Below, in pieces: positions 15,001 through 58,700 of a DNA stretch of 64,000 nt. The stretch is from assembly GCA_905178155.1 (NCBI GenBank), contig CAJINV010000010.1, positions 248,001 through 312,000 on the forward strand. Reading direction: 5' to 3'. Numbering within the stretch: position 1 is the stretch's first letter; each line of letters starts with the position of its first letter. Origin of the DNA: Amoebophrya sp. A120 (taxonomy: Eukaryota; Protista; Dinoflagellata). A program made the translations under genes and the position numbers. The notes below the pieces were generated by a model. It was given only the letters and a program-made list of their open reading frames with translations, was not told the DNA's origin and ran no database searches.

Positions 15001-18000
15001 CGGACACCCAGAGGAGCAGGAGGGCCAAAGCCCAAGGCCGGGGCGGCCTGTAGCTAACTTTTTTGAGCAAGTTCCGAACCTGTGCCATTTTTTTCCGTTT
15101 TGTCTTTGCTGCCCGATGTGGATTGTCAGTAGTTTTACCATTCAAGTCAAACAATGGCGCGAAGTCCGGCAAACATGTGCCAAGATTCAACGCGAGTCCA
15201 ACTGTAGACGCTTCAGATGAAAATAAGGGAAGCCGGGAGGCCTTTACTCTGTACCGGCGCGGGCTGTGCGGTTTGGCGAAACACACGAAACCGCAGCCCC
15301 GCACGCGGCTGATACCGCCCGGGCCCACCGTCCCAGGGGGGCGCCTGGCCTCGATTCTTTGTTCTACTCTCCACGCCGGATATATTTGGCCCCCTGATTT
15401 TATTTCTTTCGGATCTGGATACTTGACATCGGTCAGGCCACTCAATTGCTTCAGATCTGATACCTGATCCCGCTCTGGATATTTACTCGATTCGGATCCA
15501 GGTGTGATCTCTGCTCTGGATATTTAGTCTTAAAACCGCCTGCTCTGGATGTGGTAGTCTGTCGAGGGCGCGCCGGGGGTTTGTCTGGGGTGTTTCAGGG
15601 GTGTCTTCCGGGGGTGTTTGACGGGGGTCTGCCTCGGGTGTGCCGGGGGGGTGTGTCGGGGGGGTGTGTCGGGGGGGTGTGTCGGGGGTGTGTCTGGGGT
15701 GTGTCTGGGGTGTGTCTGGGGTGTGTCTGGGGTGTGTCCGGGGTGTGTCTTGCAAATTTCGAATCGCGATGCTATGCAGCCACTTTGCATACCCCAGAAC
15801 ACACCCCAAAGCTTCAGCAGTTCTTGTCGGGGGAGTGTGTCGGGGGTGTGTCTGGGGTGTGTCTGGGGTGTGTCCGGGGTGTGTTCGGGGTGTGGCCTGC
15901 AAATTACAAATCGCGATGGTATGGACCCACTTTGCATACCCCAGAACACACCCCAAAGCTTCAAAAGTTCTGGCTTGCTGCAGTTTAAATAGTAACTCTT
16001 TCAACTTTGACGATTTCAAACCTGACGCTTCCATAACGATACTTTTGCAATGTCGATACACATCCACGCAAACTGGTGCGGCTCGTGTATCAGAGGAATC
16101 GGGCTGGCCACCATGTTGCCGTTTTGGTCGTAATTTACGAGGTTCGAGTTCACTTGGTTCACTGCGTCGTTCGGGTCTACCGCGGGAAAGCCGTAGTTTT
16201 TCTGCAGTTTGTTTACCATGTCATGGTCCAAATTTGCGCTCACATCAGTGACTTGCTCCCAAAGCGTATCGCGGATGGTGTCGACCAGCTCGTAGGCCTG
16301 CATACACTTCTATCACACCAAAAAGTGTTAACGTTAACGGACTTTGGCATGCAGGAATGCACGAAAAATGAAGCCCAAATCTGTATTGCATAGCATGCAC
16401 GATAGCGAAGATTTGTCATGCGTGACTGCAATCATGCCCCAGAACCGTTAACGTTAACACTTTTTTGCCTGGTAACTTCGTGGCCATGCTTTCGACGAAT
16501 TCCGGCTTCATCGGATTTCCGTCCATTTGGTCAACTGTAAAAATGTCTGGGTCTGGAAGAATCCAACTTGTCATGCTGATTTTGGATTCCAAAAAAATCT
16601 GTATTGCATGAACAGCAAAGAGAGTCCAAGTTTTGCTACACAGAAAGAGCATTTGTCATGCGGTATAAGCATCAGGTAGCCCTCACAATAAAATCTGTGA
16701 CGCTAGGGCATGCATCACAGACATCAGGAGTCATGCAAAATGTGCATGACAAACCTGGCAATCTTCCAGACCCAGACACTCTTGCATTTGATACATTTGG
16801 TCAGAGTCGAAATTCGCGACCGGTATTTGCGTCATCTCCACCTGCGTCGGCTTGTGAGCGATGTCGTTCCCCTCAGTGTGTTATCAAATGTAAAAATGTC
16901 TGGGTCTGGAAGAATGCAACTTGTAATGCGTATTTCAGAACACAGAAAAGTCTCTCATGCATACGTAGCAAAAGCTGCCCACTTTTTGTCAGCAAAATAG
17001 GGGACTTGTCATGCGGATTCGGCATTGCGGAGGCTTCTCGAAACCTGTGATGCTGGCGCTTCCATGCCAGACCTTCTGTGTCATGCAAAAACAGCATGGC
17101 TCTTCCAGACCCAGACATTTTTACATTTGATATGTGTCGCAGGTCAATCACGCACAGGTCGCCCAGGTAAAAATCCGTGTCCATGAATTTTGCCCACTCC
17201 GTGCACTTCGGGGCGTCGGGCTGAAAAAAGGCGTTAAAAAACTCCGGGTATTTTTCCGCGCACTGGGTTAAGTTTGTTCCCGTATGCTGTGCAAAAGTAT
17301 CGCACTCGTACTAATTCTAATTGCAAATATGCATGACAAATAATCTTCCTCCCAAGAATGTACAACAGCAAGAATACAAAGTCTACTTTTCTTCTTGCGA
17401 GTAGAATTTGTAATGCAATTTCTACTAGTACTTTACTTTTGCAATGCATATCCCGCACCACCACTCAATTCCAGCATGTTCCTTTGCCCCACGTACTCCG
17501 AGATGTAGGTCTGCCCGGTGCTGTCGTAATTCAGGGTCATGGACATATCCATGGAAGCACGACGCTGTTGTTCTAATTCAACACGCAGCTCTAGATCTAG
17601 TTGTGCTCGACCGGTAGTTCTTGTGTGGTTCATCTTAGACAACTGCTGCTGCTGTTCCTTGCTGTGATACAGGTGGTCCAACCTCGACAACCGGCGGTCC
17701 ATTTGCAAAAACTGCTGCTGATCATGATGAAGATCGTCCAACATCATCTGTGTGCCTGCTTGCGAAACAACTTGATGACCTTTGTTGTTTGCAGTACTAC
17801 TTGTACTGGTAGATTCCGCTCTTTCCTCATTCCTAGATGAAGAGAGAGGATGTTGAACAGCCCTACGCTGGTGCAGGCCAAGAAGCCGGTCGCGGAGCAG
17901 CTGCTTGTTAATATCGAAAAACTTGCTGCCATTGCTGTTGCCCGCCGTGTTTTTTGTCGCACTAGAAGGAACGAGGTGCAACGAGCCGACGGCAGACGAC

Positions 18001-29367: not shown

Positions 29368-32354
29368 CTAAAGGAGCGCTTCCTTCATCAAGTCGAGAAG
29401 CTGTCTGGCGCGCTCTTGCTGGCCATTATTCAGGTAGTAATTGAAAAGCGCGCGGAAGGTTTTTTCGTCAGGCGCTCCCACGGTTTCGTCCTTAGACATC
29501 AGGTCCAGGACCCTCTCAACGCCTTCGCTGATCTCGGTTTCGCCCCTCGGGTCGCCCGCTTTCGTGTGCGCCCTTATCCACATGTTGTAGGAAGCGACAT
29601 TCGGCACCACCCCCACATGCTTCATCCTTTCGAAAGTACGCTCCACGCCCGCGGGGTTGCCTTCCTTGGCGTGCGCGCCCATTATCGCACTAAAGGTGAA
29701 TATGTTCGGCTTCCGGCCTGCACTCTCCATCTTTGCCAGAGCTTCCTCGGCGGCCCCGGCGCTGCCGCTCCTAGCTTGGGCGCACACCAGGGCGCTGTAG
29801 CTGCGGACATCGGGGCGCAAACCTGCTTGCTCCATCTTCTGCAACGCCATCTTTGCGCCCTCAACGTCGCCTCTTTTCGCGTGGGCGCTCAGCAGGATGC
29901 CGTAGCTGACGACATTCGGGCGCAGCCCTGCCTGCTCCATCTTCTGCAACGCCATCTTTGCGCCCTCAACGCCGTCCCTTTTCGCGTGGGCGCTCATCAG
30001 AGTGCTGTAGCTGACGACATCCGGGCGCAGGCCTACTTGTCCCATTCGTCGCAGTGCCCTCTCTGCGCCCTCAACATTGCCGCCTTTCGCGTGCGCGTTC
30101 AGCAAGGTGTTGTAGCTGACGACGTCCGGGCGCAGGCCTGCGCGCTCCATCTTTTGCAACGCCTTCGCCGCGCCCTCAGCGTTGCCGCTTTTCGCGTGCG
30201 CGTTCAGCAAAGTGTTGTAGCTGACGACGTTCGGGCACAGGCCTGCTTGCTCCATCTTTTCCAGCACCCTCTCTGCGCCCCCAGCATTGCCGCTTTTCGC
30301 GTAAGCGCTCAGCGCGGTGCTGTAGCTGACGACGCCCGGGCGCAGGCCTGCGCGCTGCATACTTTCTAGAAGACGCTCCGCAGCCTCAGCGTTGCCACTT
30401 TTCGCGTAAGCACTCATGACAGTGGTGTAGCTGATTTCGTTCGGTTTCAAGCCTGCCTCCATCATTTGGCCAAGAACTCTTTCGGCGCTCGGGCCGTCGC
30501 CACGTTTAGCGTGCGCACTCATGAGCACGCTGTAGACAACGACATCCGGCGAGCTGACGACGCCCGGGCGCAGGCCTGCGCGCTGCATACTTTCTAGAAG
30601 ACGCTCCGCAGCCTTGGCGTTGCCACTTTTCGCGTAAGCACTCATGACAGTGGTGTAGCTGATTTCGTTCGGTTTCAAGCCTGCCTCCATCATTTGGCCA
30701 AGAACTCTTTCGGCGCTCGGACCGTCGCCACGTTTAGCGTGCGCACTCATGAGCACGCTGTAGACAACGACATCCGGCGCGACGCCCTCGGCTTGCATGC
30801 TGTTGAAGAAACTTTCTGCGCCCTTAACGTCACCTTCCGCAGCGCGGTCTGCTATTTGCTTCGTGATCTCCAAGAGCCGCGCGCCGTGACTCTCACCGCG
30901 AGATGAAAGGGCCCCGCTGATGGAAATCGGAATCGGTCCACCAGCTTCAGCTTTCCCCCGTCCCACGTCGCGCGACGTGGATCTACGACGAGAGCCCGGC
31001 CCTGTGCCGCAACCTTTCCCGCCGCTGCCTCCTCCGCGTCCCGTTCCCTTTGTCGAACGACACCCACCACCACGTATGCATTGCAAATGTGTGTGGGTCG
31101 GGAAGAATGGAGCTTTTCATGGTGCTCGGTCTCGATCTCAAAAAAATCTGTATTGCATGAGCGCCAACATTTGCCAAGTTCTGGCTACACAACAGGCGGA
31201 GTTTTCATGCGTAGGCATGACGAGGGTCTCGCAAGCTCGATGATGCTTCTGCACGCATTCCAGACAACGCGCGCGGCCCGCGACACGCATGACAAATGAA
31301 TCTCGCGATCTTCCAGACATACACATATTTGCAATGCATAACCGGTCCTCCAGCTGCATTTGCACCTTTCCCGCCAGAAGGGCCGCCGCCTGTGGAACGC
31401 GTAAGCGGTCCTCCAGCTGCATGCTGCCCCTCCCCGCCAGCCAGGCTATCGCTGATGGAAATCGAAATCGGTCCTCCAGCTGCATGCCCCGCTTCCCCGC
31501 CAGCCAGGCTCTCGCTGATGGAAATCGGAATCGATCCTCCAGCTGCAGTTCCACCTTTCCTGCGTCCCACGCGCGACGTGGATCTACGACGAGACCCCGG
31601 CCCTGTGCCGCCACCTTTTCCGCCGGTGCCTCGTCCGCGTCCCGTTCCCTTCATCGAACGCCAACCAGTACCACGTATACACTGCAAACATGTCTGGGTC
31701 TGGAAGAATGGAGCTCTTTATGGTGCTCAGTCTCGATCTCAAAAACATCTGTGCTGCATTTGCAGAGTTCTGGCTAGACAACCGACGGAGTTTTCATGAT
31801 TAGGCATAAGGAGGGTCTCGCAGGATCTGTGATGCTTCTGCACGCATAGCAGACCATGTGTGCGGCTGCGGTCCGCGACACGCATGACAAATAAATCTCG
31901 CAATCTTCCAGACCCAGAGGACATATTTGCAATGCATAATCGGTTCCCAAGCTGCGTTTTCGCCTTTCCCGCATCCCACGCGCGACGTGGATCTATGAGG
32001 AGACCCCGCCTCCCTGGTGTGTCCCTTGTTCGTCCAGGCCTTGCTCAATTCCGCGGCCTCGCGGTCCTTTTGCCGATTATAAAGCACCGCTCGCAACTTT
32101 TCATATGCGTGCGTTGTCAGCCGACAGCTCTCAGGTGCCTCCAGCAAATAGTAGAAACACTGAGTCGCCTCCTGTAGCTTTCCTGCGGCTAGCAGCTCTA
32201 GCACGTCGCAGCGTGACGAAACGGAGGAAGAAGCGGCTGCGCTGGAAGCGGCAACCAAGGTCAGATGCGAGGTTGCAAACAAACTAGTGCAAATGTTGTG
32301 CAGGCAGCCGAGAGCGCAGAACGCCCCTACTTTGGTGTAGCTCTTCAACATCAT
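29368..32354 (-). CDS. Pentatricopeptide repeat (PPR) protein with N-terminal leader; two introners
   Basis: About 12 tandem 35-aa repeats (PDVVSYNTLLNAHAKxGNxEGAxxxLxxMxxxGLR); exons join in frame after removing each element plus 5 nt. Confidence 0.9.
31075..31340. mobile_element. Introner, A-related, DR lost
   Basis: TATGCATTGCAAAT ... ATTTGCAATGCATA. Confidence 0.85.
31676..31938. mobile_element. Introner, A-related, duplicate of 31075-31340
   Basis: Same interior and same left flank (CCACG). Confidence 0.85.
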
Positions 32355-33200
32355 TGTAATCCTGCTTCCGGATGATCCGGATGTTTGTTAGAAGTTGGGG
32401 TATAATAATAATTTCTTCAAAAAAATTTTACTGATAGATACAACTTTTTTTTCAGCTTGTCTGTTGACAGGTGGGCTGCTTTTGACTTCTCGAAGGGATG
32501 TTACAGGCAAAAAGGTTTCAAAAAAGGAGAAAAAAGATCAAAATGTTGTTGAGTAGAACAAGTGATGCAATAAATACTGATGTGATTTGTTCGAGTTACA
32601 GCTTCTAAGGCCGTGAACGAGAGACAAAGAGGTCGACGTTGAATTTGAAGAGACTGTTCTTTTGAAAGAGAAAAAAAATGTACTACACAGATATATTACT
32701 GTTGGGCGAAGACTAGCCCGGACCGATCAAAAATACTTCAAATGATCAATCTGATGCTTTCGATTTAGCAGGAGATGATTTGTTACCGAACCTAGAAGTA
32801 CATTGGAAGATCACCTCACTCATGCCACCGATGGAAGTGAAACGAGCCTCGGATCCGATCATTTCTCATTCTTGCTCCTATTTTTCGTTGACAGAAGTGT
32901 GTGGAAGTGGATCTGATGAGATTGATCTGCTCAAATTGATTTTAGTTTCTTTTCATCCAATTATCTGTATCCCAGACCGCGCCGCTGGACTGCTTCTGAT
33001 CTTGTTCACTTCTTCAGGATTTATTCAAGAAATACGTGCATCACCGAAATATTGCATCTCTTGTGCTGAAGCTTTGAAGGTGTTGATCCTCGTCATAATG
33101 GTTTTCGTCGTGAGACTGAGAACACAACTGCTCCTTTCGGGCTCGGATTCGACTTCTACTTCGTCCTATCGGCGTTTTCATCTTCCAACTTTTAGATTTA
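32290..33200. repeat. Segmental duplication (leader peptide + upstream region), copy 1
   Basis: Colinear with ~37650-38500. Confidence 0.85.
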
Positions 33201-43700: not shown

Positions 43701-46700
43701 TTCATATCTTGCCTGACAGTGAACAAAGTCTTGATATTGTATTTATTGTGTGTGGGAAAATTAAAAATTCATTTGTGCTAGAAAACATTTGTTCTGTGAT
43801 GTACGAAGGTGATAGTTTACAACGCCCGGTTTTTCTTGATGGCAAAAAATCTGTACTTTTAATCCAGCAAATGCTCCAGACCTCGATCACAAACATGAAG
43901 CTCGTCACACGACAATACTTACAGCTGATAAAAGCCGGCCTCCAGATGCCGCCTTCGAGGATTGCAGCCTCGACTTCTTTCGTCTTTCCGAGGTGCGTAA
44001 CTGCCTCTCCCAAGGACCTATCAAATGCAAAACTGTCTGGGTCTGGAATGTTGCCGGGTTTGTCATGCATGTTTTGCATGACCCAGGACGCCTGTAATGC
44101 ACGACCTAGCATCACAGATGTATTTTAGAGGGCTTCCTGGTCCTACTCCGGATGATAAATGCCCTCCCCGCGTAGCACAACCTAGACTCCTCTTGCTGGT
44201 CATGCAATACAGATTTTTTTATTTAGAGTCCAAAGTCAGCATCACAAGTTCCACTCTTCCATACACAGACATTTTTGCATTTGATAGGACCAGGTTGCCG
44301 TTGGCCCGTAGAAGAACTCGGCTTCCTTGCGATGGAGTTTGTTCGGCTTCTTGCGGTATGAATTGCAAAAGTATTGCATTCGTATAAATGCATTACAGAT
44401 TTCCTCAGCATGAGAGATAAAATTTCTAATGCTGATTTACCTAATGCATGCAGTAATCTGAATTGCTTCGTGCTGAGTTGTCTTCTTCACTTTTTTTCGT
44501 GGCCTTACGGGATGCAATCTGAGTTGTCATCGTATTGTGTATGCGATCGGTTTTCGTTCTTTCGTTGTTTTCGTTGTGTTTCGTTCACGTTTTTACGCTT
44601 CCTTTCGTACGTATGACGGGCGTTGCGTCATATCAGGGGAAAAATGCTTTCGCTGTCGAGCGTCGGGACTCACATGATAATCACATGATTATCATGTGAG
44701 CGAAACAACTCAAAATGGCTTATGGGGGTCCAAAGTCATATGATTATCATGTGAGCAATCGCGTGATAATTATATGATGACTTTGCGTTGGCTCATGCTT
44801 ATACTACTTTTTTCTTGTTTCATCTTCATTACCCTTACAGTGCCCAACTTCAGTTTGTCTTGTTCAGACGAAAAAAGAACACGCTACCCAAAAAAAAAAC
44901 TTGTCTACCTCGGACGAAAAACGAGCGCGCTAACCACCACAAAAAACTTCTCTACTACTAAGCAAAAAAAAACACCAGCTACGCACTAGCTTGCTACGCT
45001 TCTCGCTTCTCTATCTTTGTCGTTGTTTCGCGTTTTTCTTCTTCTCGCATTTTTTCGGTTTCGCCTTGCAAATCGAAAGAAAACAAAAACCATGGCGCTT
45101 GTTTCGGTGGCCGGCGATTATGATCGGGCGAAGGCACTGGCGGCCGCTGGCTTGCTCGACTTGCAGGATTCCGACTTCTGTTTCGGGGGCTCGGGCAATT
45201 TTCCCCCTCGCCTGACTCCCGCGGGGTGGGTCGACATGAGTGACCCGGGCGCTTACTCGGACAAGCAGCGCGACCGCCTGCGGCTCACTCGTATGAAGGT
45301 GGCGAAGCTGTGGGCGAATTTCAAGCGCTTGGAGACGCTCGGGAAGGGCCTCAGCGCCAAGGAAAAAATACGAAAAAAAATCAAGCCCCTGCAATTGCAG
45401 GGCGTGGGCAGCTTTTTAGGCATGACAAATTTCCCGGCTTTGCAGGGTTTCCGCCCGCTAAGGGCTCCGCCTTTTGCGGCGCCCAGGCCAGGCAGCGCCT
45501 GGCGCTTTGGGCTGTTTTTTATGATACAAGGGCCCCCGCCCGTGATTTGCTTGGGCGCACTTTTTCCCATTATGGCGCAGCATGCTTGGCGGGATGTTGG
45601 CGATGGCGATGGAAGGGGCGCAGCCCATCAGTCCCGAGCAGAAAGATTTTGCCGCGAATGTCGCCACAAAGACGCGGGATGCCGGCCTAATGGCGGCACT
45701 TCCGCACAGTGGCCCGGGCAGTGTCTTGGGCATTTCTTGGCTGCAGGACCCGGCCCCCGCTGCCACGGCTCCGGACGGAACCCAGGCCCCCACCAACGGG
45801 CAGTTCGACGCGGGCCCGGCTTCTGTGGCGAGCGACTCCGATTGCGGGGACAATTCGAAGGCGAGCGGCAAAGCGCCCGGGCGCAAGTTCGATCCGCCCG
45901 CGGGCAGCACGGTCGGTGGCCCGGGCTTGCACAACCTGCCCCCCCCGCCCCCCCCGATGCCGTCGGCGTTTCCGGGTTACCGGTACACCGGGGAAGGGTT
46001 GGCGACGACCGATTTGGATGCGGCGGCACTCGTCGCAGACATGACCTATCCCGCAAAAAAATGCACTCCCCAGGCGCATGGAGGGCGGCGGGGCCTCGTG
46101 GTGGCTTTTTGCATTTGCCCCGCCGGGGGGCAAAGGAATTTTTTTTCGTTTTGCCGGTTCGCGTTTTCGATCTTGTACGCAGTGAGGCCGCCAGCCTTGG
46201 GTGGAAAGCATTTTTTTAGGGGATAGGTCACGGGTCACGAAGTTGTTGCCGGTCGGGGCCCTCCGGAAGCTGATCCTGACACAGGCCAAGGACCCGCTGC
46301 GCGGCGGGGGAGGTATTCTTTTTTGCTTGGGTGTTGCGATAGATTTTTGCTTCCGCTTTCTTATAGTAAGGGAGGGCAGGGGGGCGCTTCAGTCGTTTTC
46401 CGCGTAGTGGGGTTTCTTTTTTCACATGACAAATAGCATTCATCTTTTCTGTTTTTCAGGCGTCGCCAGCATGGAGCAGCGAGCGGACCCGAAGGCGTGG
46501 CGGCCCGACGCGCTCGGGAAGGATTTTCATTATTTCTTTCGCCCGATGGGCTCCGACTGGATTTTACGCATGTGCACGCGCAAAGCCTTCGCAACGGCGC
46601 GCAAGCATTACGCGCGACGGAGTTGCGGCGTTTTTCTGCAAAGCCGCGGGCGCCCGGTGAAGATTCTAAACCCTAGGCCCCGGCCCAGGTCGCGGCGCAG

Positions 46701-49700
46701 GTTTGCGCCGGTTGGTGAGAAAATTTCTTTGGCCGGCCGGCGGCCGAGCGAAGCGACCCGAGTTGCAAGGCGCGCGCCCAGTGTGGCGCAGCGTCGGGGC
46801 CGTTCCTTGGCTAGATAGGGCAGCGCCGCCCCCCGCCGCGTGCGCGCATCTAGTAGCATGGGGGGCGTTGTGGGATCGCGTTTTCCTTCCTTGCTTGCCG
46901 TCCGTATAAGGGGAAAGGGGCGCCGGGTGCTTGATTGGCCGCTGCCAAGCACCATGACAGAAGAGCAGGGGGAAATGGGCGGTCGCTCAATTTTCGGCCC
47001 AGCCGTCGGGCAATACTCCGCGCGCGCGCTCGTAGCGCGGCGCTGTTTTGCGGGGGCTTTGCGTGTTTGATATTTTTTGGCCGACCTGGACAACGCTGCG
47101 CCGGGGGTGGTGGAAAGGGCGAAGGAAGACCACCGCTGCCAGCTGGTGACCCGCACTTCGGCAGCCTGCTGGCAGGCGTGGTTTCAGGTCCCCGGCGGCG
47201 CGACGGCGGAAAAAGATTTCCGCACGGTGATGGTTCCCCTTTTAGGGGGGGACAGGCACGCCAACAAGCCGAACCAAGTCGGGAGGCTCCCCGGCAGCCG
47301 CAACCCCAAGCCGGGACGGGGCAAGTGGCTGTGCCGGGTCGAGTGGATCCGCGGCGAGAAACCGGCGGAGGCCCCTGCTGCGGCCTCAGGCGGACAGGCC
47401 CGGGCGACTTCTTTTTCTAATTCGTTTCTGAAAGTTGGCTAATTTGAGAACCAAAAGAAGGCGCAAGCGCAGAAAAAAACACCCCGGCCGAACACCCTAG
47501 CCCGAGGGTGATGCCTCCCCGAAGAACCAAACCCCCCGAACATTATTGCTCCGCGGGCGGGCATAACGGAATCAACAAGGCGCAAAATCAGGCAAAAAAA
47601 GCAACACGGAACGGAGAAACACCACGCCCAACCTGCCGGACCCAAAGCCCGGCCGGAACACAAAGAAAGGCCCACCAAGGGAATTCATGGTGCCAGCGCA
47701 AGCCGATACACGCGGCGCCCAACCAATCAAAGGCCCGGCCACAGGCCATCAAAATTCGAAGAGAGGACGCGGGCGGGCAAGCATCGGCCGGGCCAGAATG
47801 AAAGGACACAAATTAGAATCGGCTTCGAATTCGTGTCCGGCGCGCGCCGGTTTCGTGTCTAATTTGCATCCGGAGACACCACCCGACCCCCCGAAAAGCA
47901 GGTGTCTAATTTGAAATCTAATTTTTTTGGAACCGTGTCTAATATGCTCTTTAATCTGCATCTAATTTGCAGAGAATCCCCAAACCCCCGGCCGAAAAAT
48001 CGTTCCCGATTTCCCTGTACAAAATTTCTGCGATTTTGTGCCGTGAAATCGGTAACGATTTTCGGCCGCTGCAAATTAGCCAGCCAATTAGCGCCTATTA
48101 GCAGCTACATTAGCTGCAAATTAGGCGCAGATTAGCTGCAGATTAGGTGCAGATTAGAAGCGCCTAAAAAAGGTGCGTTTTCCAATTAGAATTTCAAATT
48201 AGAAAATTCCGGGAGGTGTTCCCGGGGTTTTTGGTGGGTATGTCAAACATGGTCGACGCCATGTTTGAAATGCCCGCGCCCAGGACCATCTCCAGACGAA
48301 GAAGGAGGAAACCATAGGACGGGGCGCGAAACTCCCTACCGGGGCAAAGTCCGTCGGCCTGCAACGCCCGGCCCAAAAAACACACAGACGGAAGCCATGC
48401 CGGGAGGGTCACAGGCCGAACGACAAACCAGAACACGCCCCAACCAACCGACCACGGCTTCCAGACCGAAGGGAGACGGGCCGCCGAAGCCAATGCCGCA
48501 AAGCGAAAGACACCCCCGCCACGAAATCGGCAAAGCCACGAGGCCACGGGCCCGCATTCGAATAGCGGCGCGCCGAATGTGCCCCGTGCGCTTCGCAAGG
48601 AGATTCGGCACGCAACCAAGCCGACGCAAGGGGGCTGCGCACGCTCTCAAATTAGCCGGATTTTAGTTGATAATTAGACCCCGAAGGCGCCCGGGGCTGT
48701 CCGCCTGATGCGGCCGCCCCGGGAGAAGCTTAAGGCCGTGAACACAGGCGCCCCCCCCCGTTGTTGTTTCAGCTAATGCGCGGACTTGGTTGCGCTTTCG
48801 CTGGTTTCCCAGGATTTTCCACGAAAGTCCTGGGAAATTCAGGAAATCAGCACGACAGACGCCAGAAACGATATCGGGGAGGGGCTTCGTTTTTTCAGCG
48901 ATTGCGGTACGGCTTCGACCGAAGTTTTGCAAAAGATCGAGGGGAACGGCAATTGTTGCCCTCTTTCGATTGCGGCGGCCACAGGCATCAGCATGCCGAA
49001 GGTGAAGCAGTTGGCGGAGGGTTTCATGGCGGACAAGCGCGAAGAGCTTGGCCCGTTTTGGGTGGGGGAGTACGGAGTGGACGAGCCGGCGGGCCCCGCG
49101 GTTTTAGCAGAGCAGAGCAAGTGGCTGGCCTGGTTGGAAAAACTTCTGCACCCGACGGCAACGGTATGGCTGGGCCACGCATTTTTGGAGGCGGTGGCGA
49201 AAGTCATGGACCCTATGCGAAAAAATGAGCCCGCCCGCACCTAAAAGAGCCAAGCGGCACGCCGCGCGCTGTCGTTTTTGCGCGGGATGCGGCGCCCGTT
49301 TTGCGAAAATTTGCGACCCGTGCCTCTCTTGTCTCTGATGTGTAGCGGGCTGGTTTGCTTTTTCTTTTGCATAGTGTTGTCGATTCAGATCGAACCCGCC
49401 CCCGGTTCTCAAGAGCAGCCGCAGAGAATCGGAAGCGGCGCGAAGGCGATCCGACTCGAGTACGATGGCCGCCACTACAACGCTTTTGTCAGGCGCGGCG
49501 CTGAAGCGAAAGCGACCGGGACTTCCTCTGCCAGCCCCGCGCCCCCCGAAACGAAGGCCGAAACGGTTTCGAAAACGCAAGAGGGCGAACCTGTGGCGGC
49601 TGGCTTGGCCTCTCGCAAACGTGCAGCGGAAGCAGATGCGCCCAGGCCGTCGGTTTCGAGCGATGTTAGCTTGGGCGACTCGAGCGAAAGCGATGGGGAG

Positions 49701-52700
49701 GCTGCTTCGGATGCAAGCGAGTGCGCGCCCCCCCCACGGAAGCGGGGGCGAAAGTCCAATGCCGGCAAAAATTTTTCTTTGCCCGATGGCGCGACTGAAT
49801 TCTTGCTGCGGGCTGCTGACATTGGGGCGGCTTTCAAAACGTTGGGGCTTACCGCGCGGCAGCGGAAGTGGTGGAAAACAAAGAAAAACTTTTTCCGCTT
49901 AGCCCCGGGCACGGGCAAGCTGCAGGTCCGCGTAGAGTTCCAGGGCTACGGACGCAAAACCACCGAGGCGCTGATGGTGTATCCGGATTGGCTTACCGTC
50001 ATCGGCGCCGACGACGACGCGGAAAAACAGCGCATTGCGGCCCTTGGGCATTTGCGGTCGCATGGGGGAATTGAGGCAACTGGGGTGGCCATCCAACAGC
50101 TTGGCTTCACGTGGTGCGGCTTGAAAGAAAGCGCGCGGGTTGCGGTGCAAGCGTGCGAGGCTTGCGCGGCCAACGAAGAACATGCGCCACAGCAGCAGGA
50201 TTCTTACGCAAGCAGCACTTTGGCGGCGCTCAAGGACCCCGCCAATGAGTCCCTTCGGCCTTTTGCCTGGGCGGGCGTCGACTGCATAGTTTGCACCCCC
50301 TGCGAAAACTCGGCGCACCGCGGAAAAAATGTCGGGACGCGCTTCGTCGGTTGTTTGAACATGTGCTGCCTCACGACTGGCGCCGTTTGTTCCAAACTGC
50401 TGACGAGCTTCGAGGCGGAAGAGGTCAAGCAAGCGTATCTGGACATGGTCGAGGAACACGGCGCGCCGGATCATTTGAACATTGACAAGGGCACAGAGCT
50501 GCAGCAGATAAAGAACTGGAGCCAATGCACCTGCTTGACGCGCGACCATAAGTGCGCGACCTTCACCAACGACCCCCCGGTGGGCGCAGCCTTTCGCACG
50601 GATATCCGCGAAAGCCCTCGCGCGCATCCGCAGTCCAATGGTGCCGCGGAAAGTTCTACGAAACTGAAAAAGCCACTCGCCCCATATTTATAAAGGCCAT
50701 TCGTGTTGCTGGGTATGTGTTCGCGCGTGTTCTGCAACGGACTACAACCCGTGGCCACGCATCAGCAACGCATGCAAATTCCTTTTGCAATATGGGGCGG
50801 GGGGATTTTTCGGTGATAACCTACAATGGCCAGCTGAAGCAGCAATTGCGTAAAAGGGGCGGCGAAAAGGATTGGCCTCGCCATTTGCCTGCGTCTGTGG
50901 CGGCACTGAACCGACGGGCGACGCGGGGCCGTCGGATTCCCGCTGCGAGGCATCTGAGCACGTTTCTACGCCCCTTGCGGGACATCACCGAAGCCACTCT
51001 GCATCCCGTGCAACGTGCGCCCCCGCATATCGTTGCAGACAAGGGCGCCGCGGCAGAAAGCGCAAGCGCAGCCCCAGCCACCGCACTGGCTGGACCCCCG
51101 CCGCAGAATTCCGAGGAAAGGAAACACGGCGCCGGGGCCGCGGATGGCGAAAGTGATGGCGCTGCTGATTTTGCGGCCGCAACGTTGCGCGGCTCGCTGG
51201 CCAGACAGGCGCTACGCAATCGCAGCCGCTTCTTTGAAAATCGTGAGGATGGGGGCAGGCTGAAGGACATCAAAAAACTGAAAATTGGGGAACGTGTTTT
51301 GTGCAGAAACAGACAGAAAAGCCCCGGCTTGGCAACAAAATTCTTGGGGCCTTTCGTCGTTACGCAGGTGAAAGCGCTCGGGGTGGATGCTCACAGCGAC
51401 GGAGTCCTCGCCGGCAAGAAACGCGAAACGACGCTGCGCGATGTTCCTTGGAAGGACCTCAAGCGGTGCCCCACGGGCCTCACTCAAGTCGCAGCGCCGC
51501 CTGCGCCTCCACCCGAAACGGCGCCGCCTGCCGCGCCGAATCACGCCCCGCCACGAGCCCAACAAGAAACGGCGTCGGCTGCTGGGCCACCGCCTCCAGC
51601 TGCGGGCGACGATCTTTCCGCGATCGCCGCCGTCGACCCCGCAATGGATCGCGTTTTTGGCTCGGGCTCGCTTCCGCTATTAAGCTCTGCAACACTCGTG
51701 CTGGCGCGCATGTGGTTGCGCCTTTTTCTCGGTGTCGTTTTTTCTCTTTATGCGCCCAGAAGCATGCTGACCTCTAGTTTTTCTTTGTTGTTTGGCTGCT
51801 TGCGTAATTACATTGCGCCAGTGCGTTTTTGCAGTGCATAAAGGCAAACGAAAGCCTACGTCGACGTCGCCGAGCTGGAAACTGCCGGCCCGAAACAAGT
51901 TCCCACGAACATCCGGGGTTCGGTCACCCGTGTCGAGGGGGCGACGCGCGGAATTCGGATCCGCATTGAGGGCGTTACTGGTGTCAGCATCGTTTGGCGA
52001 ATTTATGAGGCTGCACAAATGGCGCGGCGGCGTGCTCAGCGGTGCCCTTGCGTCGTTTTCATTCCTTTGGCGCTCACGAGAAATTTTCAAGGCGGCCAGT
52101 TTCTGCGCATGCCGGCAACGTGGCGCACGACTGCGATCGAGGCGCGCGCCCCGCCGGAGCTTCAGGAACTGCACCGCATGGCCTCCACGTCCTCCGCCTC
52201 GGAGGGGCGCCGGTCTCTGTCTGCGTTCAAGAATCCCGAGCCCTGAAGAGGGGGAACGAGAAAAGGGGCGCGGCGTCGCTTTTCCGTCCTTGCTTAGCTT
52301 CTTGGGCTGTTATTGCTTGTGCTAGTAGATGCGTCGCGTTCTTCTTACTCGTTTTGTTTTGTTTCGAATGTGTGACTTCTCGCGGAAAACCACATGTGTT
52401 ATGCTACTTTTATCAGTCGCTCTTCTCGTCTTTTCTCGTATCTCTTCTTGTGTCGGGTTTGCACTGTTATCAGCTATAATTATTCCCACTAGGAGCGCAG
52501 CGCACCGCGCGAGTTGATTTGAAGCTGTCGCTTCGACCAACGCGCTCTGTTGCTGCACTCCACTTGTACACTATGCGCTTCTTCTTGAATTTTGCGTGCT
52601 ATTTTTGCACTATTCTGCTGTCTTCTGTTTCTGCAAACTGTTTCCATTTCCGTACGAAGTACAGCGCGCCCCGCATGTTGATTGACGGCTAGCGCTTTCA

Positions 52701-55700
52701 CCAACTTGCCCCGACGCTGCACTTCGCCTGCGAGTTTTCCTTTGCTCGTTTTGTTCTCATACAAAACCTGCACTGCTAATTTGATACGTCCCTGCGTTTT
52801 GTGTTTGTGCAAGTTAAGTTTTGTAGGCTTTATTTGTCAATGTGGAACTCGTTCTGTGTATTTTTGTTTTCCCTATGTTAGCTTTGGCTTTCTCGTTTTC
52901 ATTCCCTGCATCTTCACAATCTAAAGAGCGACTTTTTTTTGATCGCGTTCGTCAGTGCGCCAATTTTGTTACAGCAGCTGCAGCTAAGTTAATAGAAGTG
53001 GATCGCGCTCGCTTTCCTGTCGCTACTTTGCTGAATTTTTTTTCCGCTTCCTCGCATTATTCTACTTCGCAGCGCAGCTATATCACAGAAGCGGCAAGCT
53101 GAGCTGCTTTGTCTTTTGAAACTGAATTGCATCGATCTCTACAAAAACACTTGATGCGTTTTGCAATTCATTTTTGGGAAAATATGTTGCAAGGGTTGCT
53201 TTTTTGCTTTTGTCGAATTTGGCTCGCCTGGTGTTCGCTTTCGCTTTTCGGTGCTGCGTAATACGATACGCTGCAAGCTTCGCTGGGTACTCGATACGTA
53301 TTCTGTTACAATTCATCCTATACGACAATTCATCTGGGTGCATGCATGATTGCGATACGAGTACGATACTTTTGCACAGGATATGCGGAAAAAGGGAAGA
53401 AACGGCTGCCAGTGGGAATCGTCTTCAACATCATGATGATCGTGAAGATCCGAGAAGTCCTTACTAGTATCGTCATGGACGGGGGACCGGTGGTGGCAAG
53501 GTGTAGAAGTCGTCGCCGTCGCGCTGTCGTCTCGTCCACTTCCAATTGTATGAAGATCCCCGTGGCCGTGGTCCATATCGAAGATATCAACGTCCTCCTC
53601 GTACTCATTGTATTCGGCCCTACTCCACAATTGCAACACGCGCTCCAGTATCCTCTGCAAAAGTATCGTAGTCGTTCGTAGAAATTGCTGTTTATGCATG
53701 ACAAATCTTTTTCCTAAGGTAAAACAGCATTACAAATTTCATTTGTAATGCTGAGCTAATTTGTAATGCAATTTATACGAATACGATGCTTTTGCAGTGC
53801 ATATCCAACTCTTTCCGACTCGGAATGTCCGCGAATCCGGCGCGGAGCCGGGTCACGCTAGGACTTGGATGGTGGTCGAAATATGTTTCCCAACTGATTT
53901 ATTCACTGCAAAAGGAGTTGCGTTAATCTTAATATGGTCCGGCTTCTATCTTATACAACTCAGGCCGCACTACATCCTGCCTTCGTCAAATACGACATGC
54001 AACTTTTATTTCAAGTCGTTGCAATGAAGCAATTATGCAAGGTGATGAACCCGTCGCGGTTGATAGATGCAAGTCCGAAAAACGATACAGATACTCAATA
54101 CTTTTGCAAATTGAATAAGATCACCACACTGTCCACCGTCAACGGCGTATTCTTGTGCACGTTATCCACTAGCTGAAGCAAATTTTCGTATACAGTCGGG
54201 TTCTCCTCGGGATCGATGTGCAAACCGAGTTGAGAAATGACGGCCGCTGGGGGTCCGAGCATGGAACAACTCAGAAATTCCTGTTTCTGTTTTTTGGTCA
54301 GTCGAAATTCTTCCATCAAGTGCTTTTTGAGGAGCTCGAACAGGATCAACTCCTTCAATTCCGAGACCGTTTTGCCGTTCCAGACGCTAGGGTGGAGAGA
54401 AAGAAGCTCGTCACCTGACAGATTGAAAACTAAAAGGTTGGGCGGATGAAGGCGCGTCGTCCCCGTGGCTGAAGATGATTTTTTACCAATTTTCGAATTT
54501 GTTGGTCTTGGTGCTGCTGAAGCAGGACTGGAGCTATAAATGTGATTGGGCCGCTCCCTGTAGTCCTTCTGATGTGCTGTCGTATATGTGACTAGTTGTT
54601 GATGTACTCCCTCAGGATCTCGGCGAAGAGACCCCTGCTCCACCGTCAGGCCAACATTCTTTCCGTCATGATCCTCCTGCTTTCCATGTAGGTGTCCAGC
54701 AGCATCTTCGTCTTCATCTTCCACATCTTCAGCCGCGAGGACCACTCCTGGTAGTGATCGCTCTGTTCTTTTGGTCCCCGGAGCAGGCGGTGGTGGGCTT
54801 CCAACAACTACTGCGGCAGCAACGTGTACTAGCAGCTGCAGGTTGCTCAGCACGACCTCCTGGTGGAGGACGTCGAAAAGAAAGCACACCTCCAGCAGCG
54901 GCAGCACTAATGGTAAGAGGCTCAGCTGCTTTCTTGACGCCATTTTTATCTTCATCAAGGAGTCATGTGCTTTATTGTTGTTCATGTTCTCCCTGCTGCT
55001 CACGACCGGCGGGGTGGACGACTTGTTCTTGGCATGGTACGGAATAGGTGCAGCACCATCGTGATTTGTGTTTTTTCTCTACTTGAGCAAGAACTGCAGC
55101 AACAACAGACACCACTCAACTACTCAACTTCCACAAAAGGAGACACATAACACACATCAGAGGGGGTTTGTTGGTCTCCGGTCCTCGGTCCTCAGTTCAT
55201 CCCAAGGCAATAGAAGACAACGAGAGAAGAAGGGGGAAAGCTCACACACACCAAGGGGGGTTTGTTGGTCTCCGGTCCTACCTCGGTCCTCAGTCCTTCC
55301 CAAGGTAATAGAAGACAACGAGAGAAGAAAGAAGAAAGCTCACACACATCAAGAAAGGGGGTTTGTTGGTCTCCGGTCCTCGGTCCTCAGTCCATCCCGA
55401 TGTAATAGAAGACAGCGAGAGGAGAAAGGAGAAAGCTCACACACATCAAGAAAGGGCTTTTGTTGGTCTCCGGTCCTCGGTCCTCAGTCCATCCCGATGC
55501 AATAGAAGACAGCGAGAGAAGAAGGGAGAAAGCGCACACATAAGAGGGGGTCTGTTGGTCTCCGGTCCTCGGTCCTCAGTCCATCCCAAGGCAATAGAAA
55601 GCCGACGAGAGAAGAAGGGAGAAAGCTCACACACATCAGAGGGAGTCTGTTGGTCTCCGGTCCTCGGTCCTCTGTCCTTCGCAGGGTAGTAGTTGGCGAG

Positions 55701-58700
55701 ATAAGAAGGTAGAAAGCCCACACACATCACAGGGGGCCTGCTGGTCTCCGGTCCTCGGTCCCCGGTCCATCGCAAGGCAGTAGATGGCGAGGCAAGAAGG
55801 TAGACAGAAGGCCAACACACAGCAAAGGGAGGTTGTTGGTCTCCGGCCCTCGGTCCATCACCGGGCAAGATCCGACGGGGAAAGAAGGTAGAAAGCCCCC
55901 ACACAAAAAAAAGGGGGCCAATTGGTCCACGGCCCCCCCTCAGTCCATCGCGGGGCAGCAGCTGGCGAGATAAGAAAGAGGGCAGAAAGAGCACACAAAT
56001 GCGCGCGGGGTGTTGGTCTCCGGCACTCGGTCTGCAGTTCATCGCGGGGCGGCGCCTGGCGAGACAGATAAGAAGGCAGAAAGCCCCCAAGCAGGGGCCT
56101 GCTGCTTTCCGGTCCTCGGTCCCGAGTGAGTCTGTAGAGCGATCAGACCCGGCGAGCGTGATTGCTAGCATGGTACAAAGGCCAGGCATTTACGACGGAG
56201 CCTGTTCGTCTCCGGCTCTCGGTCCTCCGTCCCTCATGGGGCGGCGCACCACTTAGAGAAAAAGGTCGAAGGCCTACGGACATCGGCGGAGGCGTGCGGG
56301 TCTCTGGTCCTCGGCCCTCCGTGCCTCCCGAGGTTGGTTGGTAATGTCTGAGTTGGCGCAAACAATACGCGTCGCGCTAGGCAGCAGGGGCGGCGGCCGG
56401 CCCGATTGCTTTCGTTCGGCCTGATGAGCGGGGGGAGCGGCGGCCGCTCCCCCCGCACAGGCCCCGCCCCCGGACTTTGTTTGTTCCAGCGGCCGCGGCC
56501 GTGACGCACATGAATGACGTCGCGGAGGGAGCCCGGGCGCAACAGGAGGCGACCGAGCGCCGCCATTTTTCCTCGCCTGGCGGGCGCGCCCGTACATACT
56601 AAAGGAACAGGCGGCGAACTGAAGCGCCGCGGCGCCCCGGCCCCCGTTGCTTTTGATCACACAACCGGCAACCGAGCGACACGACGGACGTGAGCCGGCG
56701 CGCGCTCACATACAGCGCCAGGGCCATACGGCTTTCATTGATTCGCCTGGCTCTGAAGGCGAAGAGGTTCACTGCGCGGGAACAAAGATAGCGACGCACA
56801 GCGCGCGCCCGGCCTCGCTTGCGATCTGCCAGGCTGTGAACCACGCGCGCGCGCTGTTGTTCTTTGCGCCCCCCTGCATTTCAACACGAAACGCGCCACC
56901 TGGCAGATTGGTGGCCGCCCACCGAAATCACTAGCCGCCTGCGCCGCCTTCGTCATCGCCGGAACTTCGAGGCGACGGGCCGGAGCTCCGGGGGCTGCTG
57001 TCCGTCGTTGTCGCTGGGAGAAGGGTCCGAGGCAGTATCTGCGCCGGCCCCTTCGGCTTCCACCCCCGGCCGGTTGGCTTCGGGCTGTCCGATTACGGGC
57101 GAAAGGAAAAAAATCCAGCCGGTTTGTCAGCCTTCAGCATACATTTCTGTACCGCCCAGCAGGTATCCGCCCCAATCAAATGAAAACGACCCGCGTGGCC
57201 TTCGTTTTTTTTTTCCGCGGCTCGCCTTTCAGTTGCTTGTCGGCCGCGACCTGGTCTGAAAGATCAGGAAGAGCACGCGGGTCGGGACTTGGAACATTTC
57301 AAAGTGGCGGGACCATCTTGATCCATTACGGGCATGAAGCTGATCGCACTAATCAGAATCGCGCCGGCCCATGTGCTTTTTTTTTGCTGGGCCGCGCCTT
57401 GCGGAGACGGCCCTACTCAAAGCCTAAAAAATTTACGGTCTTCGCCATTTCCGGCGCAGGCTTTCGCTTCTGGCTGCGCCCCCTTTTCATCTTCGCTGCC
57501 GTCTGTTGTGTTGCGGCCGCCCACCCATGGCATTTCCGGAGATTGGGAGAAAGCCGTCGCGGCGTCGCCCTTGTGTGCGAGACCTTTGCCGCGCTCTAAT
57601 TCGGGGGCGCTTTCACGCTCTTGCGTTTTGGGCTTGCGTTTGTGTCTTGCTTTTTGTTCCTATTTTTTGTTCTTCTTTTTTGCTGTTATTTTTTTGTCTT
57701 ACTTTTTCGCCCTACTTTTTTGGGTTCCTTTTGTGTCCTACTTTGTTTGCAGTTTTCTTTTCTTGCTTTAGAGGCCGCGCGATTAATGGGCCTCCTTTTC
57801 AATAACAAAAAGGAGGGGGGTAGGTGCGGTCGGTCGTCTGGCGGGCCGTATCCACAGATGGCCGGGCCCATCCGGACCCGACCAGTATTCCCTTTTCGGA
57901 CTTCAAAAATCTAAGGCCACACCCTCCCCGCCCCGGCGAAAAAAAAATCTGTTTTGCTTGCTGCGGTTTCTCGGCTGGTTTGTTGCGCGGTTTCTGCGGT
58001 GTAGCTGGAACAGAATGAAACAGAACGAAAGATATTTCTTGGGCGCGCGCGGCGCGCGCGTGGATCGGCATACGGACGCAACAACAGAAAACGCTTCAAG
58101 CGGGCGATGCGCGCGCGCAAACTGAAAAAAAGCTCGCGGCGCGCGCTGGTGCGCGCGCGCAGCGGAGAACATGCAGCGGAACACGTGCCGCCCCAATGGT
58201 CGAAGTGGCCGCCTCAGCTTTTGCAAATGCGGGCGGTGCTGCGGTGGTCGCTTTAACAACCCGAGGGCGGCTGCGCAGTGCTGCGCTACAAGTAGCTGCC
58301 CCCTGGTGGTCCATTTCTGATATGGCCTCTGAGTAGGCCCCTAAGCAATCCTTTAGCAATGCCTTTAATTCTGCCTTCTGATTCCGCCTCTGGAATTCTT
58401 CTAATTCTTTTGCCCACGCGGCAGCTTCGAGGCTTCCAAAAATCCGCTAAAGCTGCCGGGTAGGCGAAATCACGCACGAAGTCGCAGCTTCGCGACTTTA
58501 GAAGATGAAAGAGAAGCACTTCGGACGGCAAAACCGGAAACGGAACCGGAAGGATCTTCCGGTGAGCCGGAAGATTCCTCCGCTTGCTTCGGCTTCACGG
58601 GACCACGTAAGATCCGGCAGCTGTAGATATCTGCCTGCGGCCTGCGGGAGATGATGCGCATGCTCGAGAGCAACGAGCATCATCTTCCGCGAAACAACAA

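What the first reader, a model, noticed from the sequence alone, without database searches (positions are those of the whole stretch)
44449..53342. Candidate new eukaryotic transposon class: rve integrase + OTU protease + plasmid-type RepB' primase
Seen: a bounded 8.9-kb insertion (TG...CA ends, imperfect TIR, 4-bp TSD TGCA) inside a family C introner. It carries a spliced OTU-H2C2-rve-GPF gene and a separate spliced gene with RepB'-like primase motifs. Known: TG..CA ends, a 4-bp TSD and an H2C2/GPY-F integrase are Ginger-like, and some Gingers carry OTU. RepB'-type AEP primases are mainly plasmid/phage proteins. I saw no RT, gag, LTR, pPolB, capsid or packaging ATPase. Inference: an integrase-mobilised element that may prime its own DNA synthesis, intermediate between Gingers and Polinton/transpoviron-like elements. 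I do not know of this combination being described.
Basis: partly seen in the sequence, partly recalled or inferred. Interest (0 to 1): 0.92.

Follow-up and report, generated by a model that had tools for sequence, protein, structure and literature searches.

The report
Primase-carrying integrase DNA transposon
This is a jumping gene of a single-celled eukaryote that carries a retrovirus-like integrase together with a plasmid-type DNA primase, a pairing also found fused in one protein in unrelated environmental DNA, and it likely uses the primase to start copying its own DNA when it moves.

Summary
An 8,894-bp insertion with TG..CA ends splits an introner and encodes an H2C2-DDE-GPY/F integrase and a RepB'-type primase. 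A primase profile hits RepB' at E 1e-17; a relative's model folds like RepB'. The pairing recurs elsewhere: 5 of 9 metagenome contigs with a related primase also carry integrase sequence, and one (L004) is a single spliced 1,098-aa ORF of primase, Zn repeats, H2C2, DDE integrase and OTU, with no reverse transcriptase. Corrections: the primase is probably not a separate gene but spliced into one polyprotein through hairpin-bounded introns (inferred, no RNA test); the window's OTU rests on motifs only; its primase shows no helix-bundle domain; a 6-bp TSD fits as well as 4 bp. It fails tested defining features of Ginger1, Ginger2 and Polinton. Ten literature searches found no such element; Repbase could not be searched. 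Best mechanism, inferred and untested: self-primed second-strand synthesis of a copied-out element, then integration.

The parts
44357..44448 (.). left part of the host introner; last 4 nt (44445-44448) are the left copy of the proposed TSD
   Evidence: aligns to 7 other family copies
53343..53383 (.). right TSD copy (53343-53346) and right part of the host introner
44449..53342 (+). the element, 8,894 bp, TG..CA ends under the 4-bp TSD reading
   Evidence: depth over all 30 bins in run X1
44449..44527 (+). left end: 17-bp imperfect terminal repeat, TGARTTG motifs at 44459, 44474, 44520 (likely integrase binding sites, inferred)
53308..53342 (-). right end: terminal repeat, TGARTTG motifs at 53332 and 53315
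45092..46315 (+). probable 5' exons of unknown function, from ATG 45092; exon borders drawn by eye
   Evidence: no family; best Atlas score 0.79, a lead at most
46461..46560 (+). primase exon 1 (FRP motif) after a canonical AG acceptor
46561..47073 (+). 513-nt non-canonical intron (inferred): 5-nt direct repeat at both borders, ends pair as a hairpin; exact borders can slide
   Evidence: 104.7 bits spliced vs 86.0 for exon 2 alone, no GT/GC-AG option; end pairing -74 kcal/mol, 0 of 300 random pairs as low
47074..47397 (+). primase exon 2: DxD, TSxxxxQAW, GGD and GRLPGxxN motifs (equivalents of RepB' D77, D134, R145)
47386..48708 (.). nested 1,323-bp segment with 12-bp perfect terminal inverted repeats (about 73 bp at 75%) and a 7-bp flanking direct repeat; a MITE/introner-like insertion, likely spliced out
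48843..49500 (+). OTU-like domain in two exons (about 48843-49202 and 49390-49500); Cys and His motifs only, no significant score
50049..50168 (+). H2C2 zinc finger
   Evidence: E 1e-4
50280..50651 (+). integrase catalytic core, D-D(54)-E (relatives have D-D(35)-E)
51278..51373 (+). GPY/F-type C-terminal integrase motif, in the exon after an intron at about 50672-50820
   Evidence: seen in the translation; motif name recalled and from PMC2836005
51842..52246 (+). probable last exon, unknown function
   Evidence: no significant family

Best explanation
The insertion is a DNA transposon that encodes a retrovirus-like DDE integrase and a RepB'-type primase, probably as one spliced polyprotein, and it likely moves by a copy step in which its own primase would prime the second DNA strand. 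SHOWN: the boundaries, the integrase and primase domains, and their fusion in one ORF in relatives. INFERRED: (1) the integrase binds the TGARTTG-bearing ends and cuts at the terminal CA, releasing or bridging one strand; (2) the primase lays a short DNA primer on the single-stranded element, as RepB' does on its ssiA hairpin, and a host polymerase extends it, since the element has no polymerase or helicase; (3) the double-stranded copy is integrated with a short TSD; (4) the OTU-like domain would cut the polyprotein or remove ubiquitin. I put the identity (a real primase-bearing integrase transposon lineage) at about 0.85 and the self-priming mechanism at about 0.45. The window's own copy may be partly decayed.
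For: Independent fusion: of 18 pattern matches, 9 loci encode a related primase; L003, L004, L005 and L010 carry integrase and OTU-like sequence downstream on the same strand, L008 a partial integrase on the other strand. L004 is one ORF: PF16793 E 1e-10, Stc1-like Zn repeats, H2C2, rve E 2e-4; L003 rve E 5e-9. L004 equals L010 minus five introns that can all be placed at GA/GT..AG. Three families (L003, L004/L010, L005) share 39-51% primase identity with codon-position identity 2nd > 1st > 3rd in all 6 pairs of four primases, a sign of long purifying selection. The L004 primase model (pLDDT 91.7) matches full-length RepB' 3H20 at E 6e-11 over 305 columns. RepB' makes 10-12-nt DNA primers on single-stranded ssiA and needs D77, D78, D134, R145 and its helix bundle (PMC8567376, passages). 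In the second version of the window element, 12 of 12 listed indels lie outside the inferred exons (48% of the element; rough p 4e-4; 6 further indels not shown). One polyprotein: the OTU-like exon has no in-frame ATG of its own, and two GC..AG splice routes join it in frame to the primase.
Against: No activity, intermediate or transcript of the window element was seen. No helix-bundle domain is detectable in 195 six-frame segments of the window element (best 4.5 bits, minus strand), though RepB' needs it. Precise removal of the 1,323-bp insert alone gives a stop after four codons. Domain order differs: OTU precedes the integrase here and follows it in L004; the Zn repeats are absent here. Window and L004-type integrases are only about 25% identical (tblastn E 0.03; 20 bits vs 7.4 for the best of 300 shuffles), so one origin of the fusion is not shown. 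In primase trees the window groups with the L004 clade at support 80 with a long-branch warning or is unresolved, and 7 stand-alone primases of unknown context lie in the same larger clade. L004 vs L010 differ near neutrally (11 synonymous, 19 non-synonymous). Ginger elements move without any primase (PMC2836005).
Confidence: 0.5

Rival explanations
1. A cut-and-paste Ginger-like transposon in which the primase has an accessory role (gap filling or repair at donor or target sites, or repriming a stalled fork) and is not needed to make a new copy.
For: TG..CA ends, probable 4-bp TSD, H2C2-DDE-GPY/F and OTU are Ginger1-like (PMC2836005). No helicase or polymerase. The window copy lacks a detectable helix bundle. 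AEPs have varied activities (bioRxiv 10.64898/2026.10.13.758929, passages).
Against: [quoted passage not shown] TIRs are far shorter than Ginger's 40-270 bp.
Confidence: 0.3
2. A stripped-down relic of a Polinton-like virus that kept an AEP primase, an rve integrase and a protease but lost capsid, ATPase and helicase genes.
For: PLVs combine AEP-helicase replicases with rve integrases (PMC10120064, PMC12220804, passages). Lone AEP genes may be mobile.
Against: The viral AEPs described there are fused to helicases; this one is RepB'-type and fused to an integrase. The integrase has an H2C2 finger, which Polinton integrases lack (PMC10045372, passage). The L004-type profile found no relative among 52 candidate stretches in viral contigs. 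The genes are intron-rich.
Confidence: 0.08
3. In the window, primase and integrase come from two separate nested elements, or were joined independently of the L004 lineage, so the resemblance is convergent.
For: A nested TIR-bounded segment does separate them. Domain order differs and the integrases are distant. No contig of the second version spans both parts (longest listed piece 473 bp).
Against: The nested segment encodes neither domain. No second pair of ends or TSD surrounds the primase. Both lineages use the same primase clade (support 92-95; rows were retrieved by likeness to the window exon, so this is partly circular).
Confidence: 0.1
4. A decayed LTR retrotransposon that captured a primase.
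For: The integrase is of the Gypsy/retroviral type.
Against: No LTR-like direct repeat and no RT, RNase H or gag family. The L004 ORF runs from the primase Met to a stop after OTU with no room for RT.
Confidence: 0.02

Closest known systems
Ginger1 DNA transposons (Bao, Kapitonov, Jurka 2010, PMC2836005; parts 1-2 of 5 read)
   Same: H2C2-DDE-GPY/F integrase, OTU domain, introns, TG..CA ends, probable 4-bp TSD
   Different: Ginger1 has 40-270-bp TIRs, TGTNR ends, CCGG/CCGT targets, a C-terminal OTU, 2.6-7 kb length and no primase. Here: about 17-bp imperfect TIR, TGCA ends, TGCA target, OTU-like domain before the integrase, RepB' primase.
Ginger2/TDD transposons (same paper)
   Same: H2C2-DDE integrase, 4-5-bp TSD, present in protists
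   Different: Ginger2 lacks GPY/F, has 45-300-bp TIRs and prefers RTATAY; no primase or OTU reported.
Polintons/Mavericks and Polinton-like viruses (PMC6431247, PMC10120064, PMC12220804, PMC11296320; passages)
   Same: rve-type integrase linked to a DNA-synthesis enzyme and a cysteine protease
   Different: No pPolB, capsid, ATPase or helicase; half the size; H2C2 finger present; RepB'-type primase in place of AEP-helicase or TVpol.
Ginger-reminiscent TIR introner family 38 of Amoebophrya sp. A120 (PMC12130899; passages and a search of 12 of 14 supplements)
   Same: TIR element with LTR-integrase-like homology in an introner-rich dinoflagellate; not assignable to Ginger
   Different: No primase reported; described as lacking Ginger termini and TSD. 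Whether it is related to this element was not tested.
RepB' primase of IncQ plasmid RSF1010 (PDB 3H20/3H25; PMC8567376, passages)
   Same: Fold, catalytic residues and, in the relatives, the helix bundle
   Different: Here DxD in place of DD; fused to an integrase; no RepA helicase or RepC initiator; forms a clade apart from plasmid and phage RepB'.
IS3/IS911-type copy-out-paste-in elements (recalled, no call)
   Same: Related DDE enzyme and TG..CA ends; a replication step would make the transposing copy
   Different: They use host priming; this element encodes a primase. The analogy is untested.

Membership tests
Ginger1 | H2C2 + DDE + GPY/F integrase | tested here: met
   (GPY/F by eye; D-E spacing 54)
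Ginger1 | TIR of 40-270 bp, TGTNR ends | tested here: not met
   12 of 17 and 16 of 40 nt match; ends are TGCA
Ginger1 | 4-bp TSD, CCGG or CCGT | tested here: not met
   target is TGCA (or ATGCAT if 6 bp); one insertion only
Ginger1 | C-terminal OTU or Ulp1 | tested here: inconclusive
   window: motifs only and N-terminal to the integrase; L004 type: C-terminal, top three PDB hits are OTU proteins at E 0.025-0.034
Ginger1 | YPYY motif; integrase groups with Ginger1 in a tree | not testable with these tools
   no reference Ginger sequences could be fetched (searches found no integrase relatives)
Ginger2/TDD | no GPY/F motif | tested here: not met
   GPY/F-type motif at 51278-51373
Ginger2/TDD | TIR about 50-300 bp, RTATAY target | tested here: not met
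Polinton / PLV | pPolB or primase-helicase, capsid proteins, packaging ATPase | tested here: not met
   no such family in window ORFs or L004; very divergent capsids could escape Pfam
Polinton | 6-bp TSD and long TIR | tested here: inconclusive
   a 6-bp TSD is formally possible; no long TIR
LTR retrotransposon | LTRs, RT, RNase H, gag | tested here: not met
RepB'-type AEP primase | catalytic domain with D77/D78/D134/R145 equivalents | tested here: met
   spacing is DxD; fold shown for L004, not for the window's own protein
RepB'-type AEP primase | C-terminal helix bundle | tested here: inconclusive
   present in relatives; not detected in the window element
RepB'-type AEP primase | de novo DNA primer synthesis at a hairpin site | not testable with these tools
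   needs biochemistry

The most novel reading that the evidence does not exclude
A new class of eukaryotic DNA transposon, spread across dinoflagellate-like hosts, in which one primase-integrase polyprotein copies the element out as single-stranded DNA, primes its second strand and integrates it: a capsid-free, polymerase-free, self-priming route to replicative transposition, distinct from cut-and-paste elements, Helitrons and Polintons.
Probability: 0.4. Interest if true: 0.92.

Novelty: new variant of a known kind. Interest (0 to 1): 0.8.

Why it matters
Eukaryotic DNA transposons are sorted into cut-and-paste, rolling-circle, tyrosine-recombinase and Polinton types. An integrase fused to a plasmid-type primase fits none of them as described in the papers I could search. 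It gives a short, intact, spliced ORF (L004) on which to test whether a eukaryotic DDE element can transpose replicatively with its own priming enzyme. It also shows a plasmid/phage replication domain established in eukaryotic nuclear elements, and it may explain the unclassified Ginger-reminiscent elements reported from dinoflagellates.

Tried and rejected
No whole genome is held, so termini could not be searched genome-wide. RNA runs: no RNA holder listed; X4 and X6 laid 0 reads and X5 2 partial reads, which is no test. Flanks and TSDs of a second copy were not obtained, so copy number and TSD length stay open; depths in X1 give no copy number. Integrase homolog search among long proteins: 0 of 3,313 candidates; primase profile among proteins of 722-2,060 aa: 0 of 7,994; both weak evidence. 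Window primase exon against plasmids and phages by tblastn: no match; against PDB by phmmer: nothing relevant. Prokaryote genomes: 0 of 5 and 0 of 32 candidate stretches. Viral contigs: 2 of 54 and 14 of 114 were distant phage-type primases; 0 of 52, 0 of 1 and 0 of 43 otherwise. A single-sequence fold of the whole L004 ORF failed (pLDDT 38). An integrase tree with named references could not be built. A canonical GT/GC-AG splice of the primase: none among 2,250 models. An ATG at 48708 as a separate start for the OTU-integrase part was considered and judged unlikely: it is formed by the end of the nested insert and is out of frame in this copy. The idea that the OTU exon begins with a helix bundle got no score. 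The first tree held one mis-cut row (P0035), dropped; L016 and exact duplicates were left out of both. Literature: ten searches found no primase-integrase transposon; PF16793 and Ginger+Symbiodiniaceae+integrase gave 0 papers. Repbase, most subscription papers, files 13-14 of the PMC12130899 supplements and bioRxiv supplements were not seen and could hold a prior description.
Full report
1. Boundaries. Removing 44449-53342 and one TGCA restores an introner that aligns across the junction with other copies in the window. The insertion is therefore real and bounded independently of its genes. The two ends share 12 of 17 nt (31 of 200,000 random pairs) and a TGARTTG motif at the same offset. The junction overlap is 7 nt, so 4-bp and 6-bp symmetric TSDs both fit; TG..CA with 4 bp is preferred from integrase chemistry (recalled). 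The rebuilt introner is about 16 bp shorter than its family next to the site, which may predate the insertion or come from it. No genome was available. Run X1 holds a second version at 97-98% identity over both primase and integrase parts, in pieces of at most 473 bp among those listed; it may be another copy or another allele.

2. Primase. The exon at 47074-47397 hits PF16793 below the cut-off. Its 12 single-stretch phmmer relatives all pass the cut-off (7 of 19 hits not scanned). A 20-sequence profile finds only RepB' (3H25, 3H20) in the PDB, at E 1e-17. Equivalents of D77, D134 and R145 are present, with DxD spacing. The missing first motif lies in an upstream exon: of 2,250 splice models the best removes 513 nt, joins the motifs without a gap and lifts the score from 86.0 to 104.7 bits; no GT/GC-AG model exists. 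The removed stretch has a 5-nt direct repeat at its borders and hairpin-forming ends, as described for non-canonical introns in PMC7789003. No helix bundle and no further N-terminal part were found in the window element.

3. Integrase and OTU. H2C2 is found by Pfam, the core by the Atlas and, in a profile with relatives, by foamy-virus and HIV integrases in the PDB (best E 6e-6). The D-E spacing is 54, against 35 in relatives. The OTU call for the window rests on visible Cys and His motifs; four tests gave no significant score.

4. One gene or two. Between primase and OTU lies a 1,323-bp segment with its own inverted ends and a 7-bp direct repeat. The OTU-like exon has no in-frame ATG, and two GC..AG routes join it in frame to the primase. 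Precise removal of the nested segment alone gives a stop, so a second splice is needed on that route. All 12 listed indels of the second version fall outside the inferred exons, including two in the 513-nt intron and one in the stretch both fusion routes remove (6 indels not shown; some exon borders drawn by eye). A single polyprotein is the likelier reading; it is not shown.

5. Relatives. A primase profile found 9 loci among 18 pattern matches in metagenome contigs. L004 is one ORF of 1,098 aa from its first Met: primase, helix bundle, Stc1-like Zn repeats, H2C2, DDE, a degenerate GPY/F region and OTU. It is the spliced form of L010, whose five introns fit GA/GT..AG, a pattern I recall from core dinoflagellates. 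L003 and L005 have the same order, with breaks. L008 holds a partial integrase on the other strand. L006, L007 and L009 end before the integrase would begin, and L011 has no match to the L004 protein. So 5 of 9 loci, in at least three families, link the two domains. Their primases show purifying selection. The L004 primase model is confident and matches RepB' best, then other AEPs. The relatives' OTU profile ranks three OTU structures first, weakly. None of these contigs showed element ends.

6. Origin. In primase trees the window, the L004-type clade (98-99) and seven stand-alone primases of unknown context form a group apart from plasmid and phage RepB' (95/92; 92). The window is sister to the L004 clade only at 80, with a long-branch warning. 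The integrases are about 25% identical. One origin of the fusion is neither shown nor rejected.

7. Mechanism. RepB' primes DNA on a single-stranded hairpin site for extension by another polymerase (PMC8567376). An integrase element would need this only if it passes through single-stranded DNA or a replication fork. I commit to copy-out, self-primed second-strand synthesis by host polymerase, then integration (about 0.45); an accessory role in a cut-and-paste element is the main rival (0.3). Every step of this is inferred.

8. Comparison and novelty. It works like a Ginger-type integrase element but fails the TIR, end and target features of Ginger1 and the no-GPY/F feature of Ginger2 (PMC2836005), and lacks the Polinton/PLV gene set (passages). 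PMC12130899 notes unclassified Ginger-reminiscent TIR elements in Amoebophrya without mentioning a primase in them. Ten searches found no description of this pairing; Repbase was not searchable. The scan's own notes hold no look-alike, only primase-bearing Cas1 and Mutator elements (unchecked). Verdict: real, apparently undescribed lineage; new variant of a known kind on present evidence, categorically new if self-priming is shown. Interest 0.8.

Noticed in passing
window 8967-15053 (+), with arrays at 5383-7133 and 15544-15971: An uninterrupted 2,028-aa ORF with Rep-like and Pif1-like helicase motifs seen by eye, probably an intact Helitron, next to 76-80-bp tandem arrays. Not scanned against Pfam.
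   Followed up: no
window 55031-59544: A second large insertion bounded by inverted arrays of 91-97-bp units (about 73% over 800 bp), with no long ORF of clear identity inside.
   Followed up: no
window 47386-48708: Nested TIR-bounded segment with a 7-bp direct repeat; with the 513-nt intron it suggests that this transposon is itself being invaded by introner-like elements.
   Followed up: partly
window, many sites (e.g. 126-579, 16531-16793, 36582-37036, 42280-43307): At least three introner families with terminal inverted repeats; run X1 shows very high depth over them.
   Followed up: partly
window 29774-30779 and 32265-33134 / 37619-38504: A 105-bp tandem array, and an 870-bp duplicated stretch at 77% identity.
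   Followed up: no
P0002, P0003, P0009, P0011, P0013, P0019, P0027: Stand-alone primases of 162-323 aa in the same clade, on short contigs of unknown origin; no close relative in prokaryote genomes or viral contigs. They may mark another kind of mobile element.
   Followed up: partly
L010 last 80 bp; L003 5336-6096: A short tandem repeat about 200 bp after the ORF in L010, possibly subterminal; an inverted-repeat-bounded segment downstream of the OTU part in L003.
   Followed up: no
window 50484-50649: The integrase has about 19 extra residues, with Cys and His, between the second Asp and the Glu compared with relatives.
   Followed up: no
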